DNA from: Candidatus Micrarchaeota archaeon
Lineage (GTDB): Archaea; Micrarchaeota; Micrarchaeia; Micrarchaeales; Micrarchaeaceae
DNA: 24,000 nucleotides
Direction: 5' to 3'
Assembly (NCBI GenBank): GCA_021828155.1
Contig: JAKAST010000007.1
Location: 9,425 to 33,424 of the forward strand
The translations under genes were made by a program, and so were the position numbers. Positions 17,370 to 17,705 of this stretch are shown in pieces; within the stretch, counting starts at the first letter, position 1, and the number at the start of each line of letters is the position of its first letter. The notes under the pieces were generated by a model. The model saw only the letters and a program-made list of their open reading frames with translations, had not been told where the DNA came from and ran no database searches.

Positions 17370-17705
17370 GTGAAAAAAGAGTCGCAGACCGGTAGTCTGG
17401 ACAATCCAAAGATAAAGATACAGAACATAGTCGTCAGCGCTGATCTGCACGCGGTAATAGACCTTTATACGCTCTCTAAGGAGGTCAAGGCTGTGGACTA
17501 CGAGCCTGAGCAGTTCCCCGGCGCCATATTTAGGGTGACTGAGCCCAAGGCTGTGATAATACTGTTCAAAAACGGCAAGATGATATGCACCGGTGCCAGC
17601 ACAGAAGCCGACATACGGCGCGTGCTTGATTACGCGGCCAAGATAATGTCAAAGTACGTAATATCGCTCAACCCGCCAGTCAAGGAGGGCCAAAAAGCCA
17701 AGTGA
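17370..17705 (+). CDS. Single-repeat TATA-box-binding-protein (TBP) domain protein
   Basis: 111 aa with a GTG start. [10 protein letters not shown]...[39 protein letters not shown] closely matches one TBP repeat, most like the C-terminal one. An in-frame TGA at 17337-17339 and the stop at 17703-17705 bound the ORF. Codon usage is native ATA-rich. Confidence 0.85.
   Translation: [111 protein letters not shown]

What the first reader, a model, noticed from the sequence alone, without database searches (positions are those of the whole stretch)
17370..17705. Stand-alone single-repeat TBP-domain protein ('half TBP')
Canonical archaeal and eukaryal TBPs are about 180 aa and carry two tandem repeats that together form the DNA-binding saddle. 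This 111-aa ORF carries exactly one repeat ([10 protein letters not shown]...[39 protein letters not shown]), most similar to the C-terminal repeat. A start-codon choice or a single frameshift cannot extend it. An in-frame TGA sits at 17337-17339, the stop is at 17703-17705, and the next gene starts 3 nt later on the opposite strand. Codon usage is native, and it has its own A/T-rich upstream region (ATATTTAAA at 17304-17312, TTAATAA around 17330). It could form a symmetric homodimeric saddle, which is the postulated ancestral state of TBP. It could also pair with another half, or act as a competitor or modulator of a full-length TBP encoded elsewhere.
Basis: partly seen in the sequence, partly recalled or inferred. 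Interest (0 to 1): 0.8.

Follow-up and report, generated by a model that had tools for sequence, protein, structure and literature searches.

The report
One-lobe TBP of Micrarchaeota archaea
This is a real, strongly conserved gene for half of the TATA-binding protein, found across a whole group of tiny DPANN archaea, so their promoter-recognition factor probably assembles from two identical halves, the form long proposed as the ancestor of TBP.

Summary
ORF 17370-17705 (+) encodes 111 aa with exactly one complete TBP lobe (Pfam PF00352, E 8e-26). It cannot be extended, and the identical protein sits in the same gene order in at least 23 contigs from independent assemblies.

It belongs to a large family of one-lobe TBPs (90-145 aa, 68-93% identical) in Micrarchaeaceae. 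The family has fixed synteny and dN/dS of about 0.13, and it is more conserved than the neighbouring SRP54. Both DNA-kinking Phe residues and the TFB-binding stirrup are invariant.

Related one-lobe genes in other Micrarchaeota and Iainarchaeota occupy the same L21e-RpoF-DUF655 locus as ordinary two-lobe TBP genes. The two-lobe TBPs of this clade are abnormally symmetric: their lobes are 74% identical (median) against 41% in TBPs generally, and up to 96%. In some of them each lobe is 92-94% identical to a stand-alone half.

Best explanation (about 0.65): this is the organism's general TBP and works as a symmetric homodimer, with TFB and the BRE setting promoter direction.

Main caveat: a published census lists two TBP-family genes in the complete Mancarchaeum genome, and I could not identify the second. 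A heterodimer partner or a co-resident full-length TBP is therefore not excluded. Single-lobe TBP-domain proteins were known, but not of this kind.

The parts
17370..17705 (+). CDS of the one-lobe TBP (111 aa, GTG start, TGA stop)
   Evidence: ORF list and sequence. Pfam PF00352 gives one repeat at E 7.9e-26. The exact protein is called in at least 23 contigs of independent assemblies.
17409..17657 (+). The TBP lobe itself (residues 14-96: S1-H1-S2-S3-S4-S5-H2)
   Evidence: Pfam alignment covers profile positions 1-85 of 85. The AF2 monomer model has H1, S2-S5 and H2, and Foldseek matches only TBPs at E <= 0.001, top hit 1ais_A. S1 (residues 15-26) has pLDDT below 50.
17502..17516 (+). Stirrup motif E45-P46-E47-Q48 and the first DNA-kinking Phe, F49
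   Evidence: Invariant in 67 family members and at 100% in all half and DPANN-type lobes. From textbook knowledge, this corresponds to the YEPE(L/Q)FPG stirrup that contacts TFIIB/TFB in solved complexes.
17565..17579 (+). Second DNA-kinking Phe, F66, within the LFKNGK motif
   Evidence: Invariant F66 K67 N68 G69 K70.
17337..17339 (+). In-frame upstream stop codon that fixes the longest possible N-terminus
   Evidence: Sequence. In relatives without this stop, gene callers extend the ORF across the promoter region, as in P0001 (137 aa).
17329..17335 (+). TTAATAA, the probable TATA box of the half-TBP gene (inferred)
   Evidence: It lies 35-41 nt upstream of the start codon. Comparable A/T boxes sit 25-45 nt upstream of other genes in the window. 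No transcript data.
17304..17312 (.). ATATTTAAA (contains the palindrome TTTAAA), more probably the TATA box of the divergent GGR gene (inferred)
   Evidence: It lies about 31-39 nt upstream of the start that the NCBI assembly annotates for GGR (window 17273). The first start codon in that ORF is GTG at 17291. The box is 58-66 nt upstream of the half-TBP start.
16176..17291 (-). Geranylgeranyl reductase-like flavoprotein, the conserved upstream divergent neighbour
   Evidence: Pfam FAD_binding_3. It has the same position in Mancarchaeum and in 16 of 23 GTDB orthologue loci.
17709..18830 (-). GT4 glycosyltransferase, the conserved convergent neighbour 3 nt downstream
   Evidence: Present in 22 of 23 orthologue loci.

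Best explanation
The gene encodes the lineage's version of the general transcription factor TBP, reduced to one lobe.

Proposed mechanism:
- Two copies pair across a true two-fold axis through the central S1 strands. This rebuilds the ten-stranded saddle that ordinary TBP makes from its two tandem lobes.
- Each subunit contributes one pair of DNA-kinking phenylalanines (F49, F66) and one acidic stirrup (E45-P46-E47-Q48).
- The dimer binds and bends the A/T-rich box upstream of genes.
- TFB docks on one of the two identical stirrups. Promoter direction is set by TFB-BRE contacts, as is already established for archaeal promoters.

Shown here:
- The gene is real, has one lobe, and is native to the genome.
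- It is under strong purifying selection, and it is the only TBP-family ORF detected in all 40 half-clade genomes sampled.
- Sister one-lobe genes are positional orthologues of two-lobe TBP genes.
- Two-lobe TBPs of this clade are almost perfectly symmetric.

Inferred, not shown:
- Dimerisation, DNA binding, TFB recruitment, and that no other TBP is present in this genome.
For: 1. One complete canonical TBP lobe is present, and all DNA-contact and stirrup residues are invariant.
2. The family comprises hundreds of 90-145 aa proteins in Micrarchaeaceae/Micrarchaeia, including the complete Mancarchaeum genome.
3. The synteny NuoN-GGR-TBP-GT4-SRP54 is conserved. The half-TBP is 68-82% identical across 23 GTDB species, against 63-79% for SRP54 and 46-63% for the other neighbours. 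dN/dS is about 0.13.
4. In 40 GTDB genomes of the all-half clade, exactly one TBP-family locus per genome was recovered, and it always has one lobe.
5. No contig length is shared between the listed half-TBP contigs and the listed full-length-TBP contigs. These lists include 9 and 8 contigs over 200 kb respectively.
6. One-lobe genes of the sister group and two-lobe TBP genes of neighbouring lineages sit at the same L21e-Rpo4-DUF655 locus.
7. Two-lobe TBPs of this clade have a median N-C lobe identity of 74%, against 41% for TBPs at large. Within-protein identity exceeds orthologous identity in at least 97% of divergent pairs.
8. P0396-P0399 have lobes 93-96% identical to each other and 92-94% identical to the stand-alone half L036. 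A patch of about 120 nt is nearly identical between the two lobes, a sign of gene conversion. A nearly perfectly symmetric saddle is therefore functional in this clade, which is what a homodimer would give.
9. In the AF2 monomer model, only the central interface strand S1 is not confidently placed.
Against: - Golyshina et al. 2017 (PMC5498576, Suppl. Data 4) list two arCOG01764 (TBP) proteins in the complete Mancarchaeum acidiphilum Mia14 genome. I found only the 119-aa half, P0101. The second could be another half or a full-length TBP.
- One Iainarchaeum MAG (AUK171) carries two different half genes, L050 and L066.
Absence of a second TBP is therefore not proven.
- No dimer model could be obtained: the fusion modelled without an alignment gave pLDDT 36.8.
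- There is no expression or biochemical evidence.
- The window's family is not at the ancestral L21e locus.
Confidence: 0.65

Rival explanations
1. Split TBP. The product is one of two different halves and forms an obligate heterodimer with a second, more divergent one-lobe protein encoded elsewhere in the genome.
For: - Mia14 is reported to have two arCOG01764 members.
- Iainarchaeum AUK171 has two distinct half genes on different contigs, L050 at the L21e locus and L066 elsewhere.
- Split genes are common in DPANN. For example, RpoB is counted twice in the same table.
Against: - None of the 23 Micrarchaeaceae or 17 sister-group GTDB genomes yielded a second lobe-bearing locus, and the two half groups never co-occur.
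- This half keeps every feature of both lobes (both Phe residues and the stirrup), so nothing calls for a complementary partner.
- Related two-lobe TBPs are near-perfectly symmetric.
Confidence: 0.17
2. Accessory paralogue. A full-length TBP elsewhere in the genome is the general factor. This half modulates it, for example by competing for DNA or TFB or by capping a TBP lobe, as proposed for truncated TBP paralogues such as halobacterial TbpA.
For: - There is precedent: single-lobe TBP-domain proteins coexist with full-length TBPs in Halobacteria and Thermococcales (Brindefalk 2013).
- Mia14 has a count of two.
- The window family sits away from the ancestral TBP locus.
Against: - It is more conserved than SRP54 across the family.
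- No Micrarchaeota-type full-length TBP shares a contig with any listed half.
- None was found in 40 half-bearing genomes.
- In L120, a relative of the window organism, the ancestral RpoF-DUF655 locus has no L21e gene and no TBP ORF within 5 kb.
- Sister halves sit exactly where the TBP gene sits in other lineages.
Confidence: 0.13
3. Artefact or decaying fragment. The ORF is a truncated remnant of a two-lobe TBP, produced by an assembly error, a frameshift or pseudogenisation.
For: None beyond its length. One apparent half in the survey (L058) is merely cut by a contig end.
Against: - The identical ORF and context occur in at least 23 independently assembled contigs.
- There is no second lobe in any frame, and there is no room: the gene is bounded by a stop 33 nt upstream and a convergent gene 3 nt downstream.
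- dN/dS is about 0.13 over 25 orthologues, and codon usage is native.
Confidence: 0.02

Closest known systems
Canonical archaeal TBP (about 180-190 aa, two tandem lobes; e.g. Pyrococcus woesei 1PCZ/1AIS, Sulfolobus 1MP9, Methanocaldococcus 2Z8U)
   Same: The lobe fold and sequence are the same: 37-43% identity to solved archaeal TBP lobes, and only TBPs are hit by sequence and by fold. The paired Phe residues, the YEPEQFPG stirrup and the LFxxGK motif are conserved. Sister halves occupy the same chromosomal locus as two-lobe TBP genes.
   Different: There is one lobe per polypeptide instead of two. A saddle would therefore need two chains and would be exactly, not pseudo-, symmetric. The protein has short Lys-rich tails in place of the inter-lobe linker.
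Ultra-symmetric two-lobe TBPs of other Micrarchaeota (Anstonellales, groundwater lineages) and Iainarchaeota/Diapherotrites (e.g. P0002, P0348, P0396-P0399)
   Same: These are the closest full-length relatives, with up to 62% lobe identity to the window protein. Signature residues are shared (A52-I53, K67-N68). Their lobes fall in one clade with the halves.
   Different: They have two lobes in one chain. The lobes are 74% identical (median), and up to 96%, and show signs of gene conversion.
Halobacterial TbpA-type single-lobe TBP (Brindefalk et al. 2013, PMC3597702)
   Same: A stand-alone protein made of one TBP lobe that clusters with genuine TBP lobes.
   Different: TbpA is a lineage-specific truncated copy beside several full-length TBPs and is reported as non-essential. 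The present family is conserved through a whole family or order, and no full-length TBP was found with it.
Thermococcales monopartite TBP-domain proteins (about 82-136 aa; Brindefalk et al. 2013, Table 3)
   Same: Small stand-alone proteins with one predicted TBP-like fold.
   Different: Those are very divergent from TBP, form a separate sequence cluster, and coexist with a normal TBP. The window protein is a canonical TBP lobe (Pfam E 8e-26) with all DNA- and TFB-contact residues.
Hypothetical ancestral homodimeric TBP (the gene-duplication model for the TBP saddle)
   Same: One lobe per chain that would form a symmetric saddle as a dimer. The literature still treats this as a hypothetical prototype.
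   Different: The family is nested among lineages with two-lobe TBPs and belongs to a clade in which lobe number changes. It is therefore more likely a secondary return to that state than a survivor of it.

Membership tests
TBP family (Pfam PF00352 / arCOG01764) | Sequence match to the TBP lobe profile above the curated threshold | tested here: met
   90.2 bits against a gathering score of 22.9, covering profile positions 1-85 of 85. All 35 PDB sequence hits (E <= 0.001) are TBPs. The Foldseek hits at E <= 0.001 are all TBPs.
TBP family (Pfam PF00352 / arCOG01764) | Two tandem lobes in one polypeptide forming the saddle | tested here: not met
   There is one lobe only. NCBIfam full-length TBP models score 67-90 bits against cutoffs of 181-347.
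TBP family (Pfam PF00352 / arCOG01764) | A pair of DNA-intercalating phenylalanines per lobe, plus conserved minor-groove contact residues | tested here: met
   F49 and F66 are invariant, and N19, V21 and G69-K70 are conserved. The mapping to contact residues rests on textbook knowledge of TBP-DNA structures.
TBP family (Pfam PF00352 / arCOG01764) | Acidic stirrup that binds TFB/TFIIB | tested here: met
   Y44-E45-P46-E47-Q48-F49-P50-G51 is invariant in 67 members. This is a sequence-level test only; binding was not tested.
TBP family (Pfam PF00352 / arCOG01764) | Orthology with the organism's TBP gene (same locus as TBP in related genomes) | tested here: inconclusive
   Sister one-lobe genes (group a) sit at the L21e-Rpo4-DUF655 locus shared with two-lobe TBP genes. 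The window's own family has moved to the GGR/GT4 locus, but it is the sister clade of group a in the lobe tree (neighbour-joining, no bootstrap).
TBP family (Pfam PF00352 / arCOG01764) | Binds and bends TATA DNA and nucleates TFB-RNAP recruitment | not testable with these tools
   This needs EMSA or FRET and in vitro transcription.
Truncated TBP paralogue beside full-length TBPs (halobacterial TbpA type) | Coexists in the genome with a closely similar full-length TBP | tested here: inconclusive
   No full-length TBP was found in the window, in +-10 kb flanks, in 40 related genomes, or on shared contigs. However, the scans were truncated and Mia14 is reported to hold two arCOG01764 genes.
Thermococcales-type monopartite TBP-domain proteins | Highly diverged from TBP lobes, forming a separate sequence cluster | tested here: not met
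   The window protein is 37-62% identical to genuine TBP lobes and scores E 8e-26 on PF00352. The Thermococcales proteins are described as only distantly related to TBPs.
Multidomain TBP-fold proteins (RNase HIII, DNA glycosylases) | TBP-like domain fused to a catalytic domain | tested here: not met
   The 111-aa protein has no other domain.
Split gene (two complementary halves of one protein) | A second gene encodes the missing half | tested here: inconclusive
   None was found. It is not excluded, and it does occur in Iainarchaeum AUK171 (L050 and L066).

The most novel reading that the evidence does not exclude
A whole archaeal lineage (Micrarchaeaceae and its sister groups) carries out all transcription initiation with a homodimeric one-lobe TBP. 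Lobe number in this DPANN clade cycles between one and two, and occasionally three, through tandem duplication, gene conversion and collapse. This would be a living and experimentally tractable counterpart of the postulated ancestral TBP. It would also be a natural test of how a perfectly symmetric TBP yields directional transcription.
Probability: 0.55. Interest if true: 0.85.

Novelty: new variant of a known kind. Interest (0 to 1): 0.72.

Why it matters
TBP is required at essentially every promoter in archaea and eukaryotes. Its two-lobe saddle is the standard example of a protein thought to have arisen by duplication of a homodimeric ancestor, yet the literature still treats the one-lobe form as hypothetical.

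A canonical one-lobe TBP that serves as the main TBP of a cultivable lineage would make several questions directly testable. Co-cultures of Mancarchaeum, Micrarchaeum harzensis and Microcaldus exist.
- Can a true two-fold TBP bind and bend DNA?
- Does TFB-BRE alone set promoter polarity?
- What does lobe asymmetry add?

The accompanying pattern gives an unusually clear view of how internal protein repeats are gained, homogenised and lost. In this clade the two-lobe TBPs have near-identical lobes, and halves and doubles sit at the same locus.

There is also a practical point. NCBI's TBP models score these proteins below their cutoffs, and many are labelled 'hypothetical protein' in the source records. 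Genome surveys that rely on those names may therefore score TBP as missing.

Tried and rejected
- **AF2 of a head-to-tail fusion of two copies, without an alignment.** It gave pLDDT 36.8 and is uninformative.
- **Finding the second TBP-family gene of Mancarchaeum Mia14.**
  - It is not within +-10 kb of the half.
  - It is not named, or recognisable by the 952,257-bp contig length, in any of the three protein searches. The third search, with the sister-half profile, listed only two-lobe proteins because their scores are doubled.
  - The Mia14 supplements hold no gene list.
  - Supplements of five other papers gave nothing. They had no hits, were cut when stored, or were not held.
- **Exhaustive representative search.** The top 150 are dominated by two-lobe proteins, so it could not reveal a weaker second half-family.
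- **Genome and metagenome scans.** Both stopped at 600 pattern rows, and Mia14 itself was not returned. Absence of a second copy cannot be concluded from them.
- **Upstream DNA alignment of the window against Mancarchaeum.** No conserved promoter block was found.
- **Sigma-70 promoter and terminator scan.** It is not relevant to archaeal promoters, and the counts were at chance level.
- **Lobe-specific signature positions, to decide whether the half derives from the N or the C lobe.** Only one discriminating column was found, so the question stays open.
- **Rejected idea: the two half groups (a and b) are co-resident paralogues.** They never occur in the same genome among 40 genomes.
- **Literature searches for a prior description of a Micrarchaeota one-lobe TBP.** Only general mentions of single-lobe archaeal TBPs turned up (Brindefalk 2013; Ravarani 2020). 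The library lacks most subscription journals, so a prior report cannot be ruled out.

Full report
**1. The observation**

The ORF at 17370-17705 (+) exists as described.
- It starts with GTG and encodes 111 aa.
- An in-frame TGA lies 33 nt upstream, at 17337-17339.
- The stop is TGA at 17703-17705.
- A convergent glycosyltransferase gene ends 3 nt later, at 17709.

Pfam finds one complete TBP repeat: residues 14-96 on profile positions 1-85 of 85, 90.2 bits, E 7.9e-26. NCBI's full-length TBP models align to only one half of their length and score 67-90 bits against cutoffs of 181-347.

Against PDB sequences, all 35 hits are TBPs, and the protein matches both lobes of each. For Sulfolobus TBP the scores are 65.4 bits (N lobe) and 69.5 bits (C lobe). 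Over 285 two-lobe TBPs the mean identity is 45% to N lobes and 48% to C lobes. The claimed likeness to the C-terminal repeat is therefore real but slight.

An AlphaFold2 model built on a 67-sequence family alignment has moderate confidence (pLDDT 65.8). It shows H1, S2-S5 and H2, and Foldseek matches only TBP structures at E <= 0.001. The one core element not confidently placed is S1 (residues 15-26). From general knowledge of TBP structures, S1 lies at the dyad next to S1' of the other lobe.

**2. Not an artefact**

- The identical 111-aa protein is called in at least 23 contigs from independent NCBI and ENA assemblies, with the same neighbours.
- A six-frame profile search of the window and of +-10 kb in eight related loci finds no second lobe in any frame.
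- GC3 (0.65) and codon usage (RSCU r = 0.74) match the surrounding genes.

**3. A large conserved family**

A search of 5.8 billion proteins returned 379 hits.
- Nearly all of the best 120 are 83-174 aa one-lobe proteins, 66-98% identical to the window protein.
- Where named, they come from Micrarchaeota, Micrarchaeia or Micrarchaeaceae.
- They include the 119-aa protein annotated as TBP in the complete genome of Ca. Mancarchaeum acidiphilum.
- Some relatives are annotated with longer N-termini. In P0001 the extra residues are a read-through of the promoter region, which carries a stop in the window.

Conservation is strong.
- The gene order GGR(-) | TBP(+) | GT4(-) is the same in Mancarchaeum.
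- In 23 GTDB species representatives (L009-L031), the GT4 neighbour is present in 22 and the GGR neighbour in 16, often with NuoN and SRP54 alongside.
- Across those species the half-TBP is 68-82% identical to the window protein. SRP54 is 63-79%, GT4 48-63%, GGR 47-60% and NuoN 46-57%.
- Pairwise dN/dS has a median of 0.13.
- Invariant residues in 67 members include Y44-E45-P46-E47-Q48-F49-P50-G51 and L65-F66-K67-N68-G69-K70. These cover the stirrup and both phenylalanines that kink DNA in known TBP-DNA complexes. That mapping is from established knowledge and was not tested here.

**4. The wider picture in Micrarchaeota and Iainarchaeota**

A scan of one genome per GTDB species returned 80 loci. 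It was truncated at 600 pattern rows. A local profile search of stop-to-stop ORFs in those loci sorted them as follows.
- The 23 close orthologues all have one lobe.
- About 28 further one-lobe genes, 42-59% identical, come from other Micrarchaeota and Iainarchaeum MAGs.
- About 29 are two-lobe genes.
- One apparent half, L058, is merely cut by a contig end.

In a neighbour-joining tree of lobes (no bootstrap), lobes of generic archaeal TBPs split into an N cluster and a C cluster. All N lobes, C lobes and halves of the DPANN type form a single clade. Halves and doubles are interleaved within it.

A large all-half subclade consists of the window's family (group b) and a sister group (group a: L032-L041, L043, L047, L049, L056, L057, L062, L076). 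The 23 group-b and 17 group-a genomes do not overlap. Groups a and b are therefore orthologues in different lineages rather than co-resident paralogues.

**5. Positional orthology**

The two-lobe gene P0397 lies between L21e(-) and a nucleotidyltransferase, downstream of MoxR(-), Rpo4 and DUF655. The same L21e/Rpo4/DUF655 neighbourhood flanks almost every TBP gene of this clade, both one-lobe and two-lobe.
- One-lobe examples: L033-L041, L043, L047, L049, L056, L057, L062, L050, L054, L060, L067, L072, L081, L084.
- Two-lobe examples: L044-L046, L051-L053, L055, L059, L061, L063-L065, L068-L071, L073-L075, L077, L079, L087.
- A metagenome scan with DUF655 found six more halves at this locus.

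In these lineages the half is therefore the TBP gene and not an extra copy. The window's family has left this locus. In L120 the Band7 protein is 68.5% identical to the window's Band7. There, MoxR-Rpo4-DUF655 is followed by neither L21e nor any TBP-like ORF within 5 kb.

**6. Symmetric two-lobe relatives**

Full-length TBPs do exist in other Micrarchaeota (Anstonellales, groundwater lineages) and in Diapherotrites. Their two lobes are unusually alike.
- Median core identity between the lobes is 74% (IQR 71-78%), against 41% (37-45%) for TBP representatives at large.
- The two lobes of one protein are more alike than orthologous lobes of different proteins in at least 97% of pairs with under 70% orthologous identity. 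N-to-N and C-to-C identity barely exceeds N-to-C identity (0.567 against 0.555).
- P0396-P0399 have lobes 93-96% identical to each other and 92-94% identical to the stand-alone half L036.
- At DNA level the two lobes of the P0397 gene are 84% identical overall. A central patch of about 120 nt is nearly identical even at synonymous sites, which points to gene conversion.

Whether by re-duplication or by conversion, an almost perfectly symmetric saddle is functional in this clade. One-lobe and two-lobe forms replace one another at the same locus. This is the strongest indirect evidence that the half works as a homodimer with the ordinary TBP architecture.

**7. Mechanism proposed**

- Two subunits pair through S1 across a two-fold axis and form the saddle.
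- Four phenylalanines, two from each subunit, kink an A/T box.
- TFB binds one of two equivalent stirrups.
- Promoter polarity comes from the BRE. This is established archaeal biology, and archaeal TBPs are already known to be more symmetric than eukaryotic ones.

In the window, A/T boxes of the type TTTAAA, TTTTAA or TATTTAA lie about 25-45 nt upstream of most genes. TTAATAA (17329-17335) is in the right place for the half-TBP gene. ATATTTAAA (17304-17312) better fits the divergent GGR gene. Dimerisation, DNA binding and TFB recruitment are all inferred.

**8. The main uncertainty**

Supplementary Data 4 of Golyshina et al. 2017 lists two arCOG01764 (TBP) proteins for the complete Mia14 genome and one for most other DPANN genomes. 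I could identify only the half, P0101.
- The second protein is not within 10 kb of the half.
- It is not among the best 120 hits of any of the three searches, judged by name or by the 952,257-bp contig length.
- It could be a lineage-specific acquisition, a divergent second half, or a full-length TBP. Mia14 has many genes transferred from its Thermoplasmatales host.

One Iainarchaeum MAG has two different halves (L050, L066), so heterodimeric arrangements probably exist somewhere in this clade. No contig length is shared between the listed half-bearing contigs and the listed full-length-bearing contigs. This argues against routine coexistence but does not prove it, because only the top 120 of each search are visible.

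**9. Comparison with what is known**

Single-lobe TBP-domain proteins in archaea have been reported. Brindefalk et al. 2013 described halobacterial TbpA and a divergent Thermococcales family. Ravarani et al. 2020 mention single-lobe versions in passing. The window protein differs from both.
- TbpA is a truncated copy beside full-length TBPs.
- The Thermococcales proteins are only distantly TBP-like and also coexist with a normal TBP.

I found no paper describing a canonical one-lobe TBP as the TBP of Micrarchaeota, nor the ultra-symmetric two-lobe TBPs. A 2026 paper still refers to a hypothetical monopartite TBP prototype. The searched library omits most subscription journals, so prior notice elsewhere cannot be excluded.

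**10. Verdict**

It is best read as a new variant of a known kind: a one-lobe, probably homodimeric, general TBP.
- Homodimeric general factor: 0.65
- Heterodimer with a second half: 0.17
- Accessory paralogue beside a full-length TBP: 0.13
- Artefact: 0.02
- Interest: 0.72

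Noticed in passing
Related proteins P0002, P0283-P0443; loci L044-L087, L091 (4001-4591): Two-lobe TBPs of Micrarchaeota and Iainarchaeota are abnormally symmetric. Median N-C lobe identity is 74% and reaches 96%, against 41% for TBPs at large. In L091 the two lobes share a DNA patch of about 120 nt that is nearly identical even at synonymous sites, which suggests intragenic gene conversion.
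   Followed up: partly
L050 (3001-3285) and L066 (2974-3273), both from Iainarchaeum MAG AUK171 (JAGGYF01): One genome carries two different one-lobe TBP genes on different contigs. L050 is at the L21e-Rpo4-DUF655 locus and L066 is elsewhere. This could be a heterodimeric, truly split TBP.
   Followed up: partly
Proteins P0284 (283 aa), P0285 and P0131 (272 aa), P0311 (275 aa): These are TBP-family proteins with three complete lobes in one chain. Some come from very short contigs, so a repeat mis-assembly is possible. If real, a three-lobe TBP is unexplained.
   Followed up: no
Loci L033-L087, L091, L094-L106 (genes flanking the TBP match): The neighbourhood L21e / Rpo4(RpoF) / DUF655 next to the TBP gene is conserved across Micrarchaeota and Iainarchaeota. 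The Micrarchaeaceae family, including the window, has moved its TBP to a GGR/GT4 site. In L120, a relative of the window organism by its Band7 protein, the RpoF-DUF655 cluster has no L21e and no TBP after it.
   Followed up: partly
Ca. Mancarchaeum acidiphilum Mia14 (P0101; loci L007/L008); PMC5498576 Suppl. Data 4: The published arCOG census lists two TBP-family (arCOG01764) proteins in this complete genome. Only the 119-aa half could be found here. The identity of the second is unknown.
   Followed up: partly
P0001 (137 aa) compared with window 17307-17369: In relatives that lack the upstream stop codon, gene callers extend the ORF through the A/T-rich promoter region. P0001 reads 'FKAFHINLNK...' where the window has TTTAAAGCTTTCCATCTAAACCTTAATAAC followed by TGA. 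Many annotated N-terminal extensions in this family are probably not real.
   Followed up: partly
L012 ('Methanothrix sp.'), L022 ('Acidoferrum sp.'), L020/L029/L032/L034 ('Marsarchaeota'), P0037 ('Baltobacteraceae bacterium'): Contigs carrying half-TBP genes of the Micrarchaeota type are filed under unrelated organism names. L012, L020, L022 and L029 also show the Micrarchaeaceae synteny. These are probably mis-binned or mislabelled MAG contigs.
   Followed up: no
L089 and L090 (4983-5540), IMG/VR contigs of 84 kb and 150 kb: Two contigs classed as viral encode an ordinary, asymmetric two-lobe TBP. A 2025 paper (PMC12647753) also reports TBP in two 'DPANN viruses' from acid mine drainage. It is unclear whether these are true viruses or cellular contigs.
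   Followed up: partly
window 2645-3577 (+), 3651-4823 (+), 6847-7305 (+), 21656-22090 (+): Four sizeable ORFs (310, 390, 152 and 144 aa) have no Pfam match. The 390-aa ORF has the least typical codon usage in the window (RSCU r = 0.37).
   Followed up: no
window 9382-16170 (+): A run of complex I-type genes (NuoH, a ferredoxin-like NuoI, NuoJ, NuoK and three antiporter-like subunits) lies immediately upstream of the GGR/TBP pair. It is conserved with them in most Micrarchaeaceae loci. Mancarchaeum lacks it at this position.
   Followed up: no
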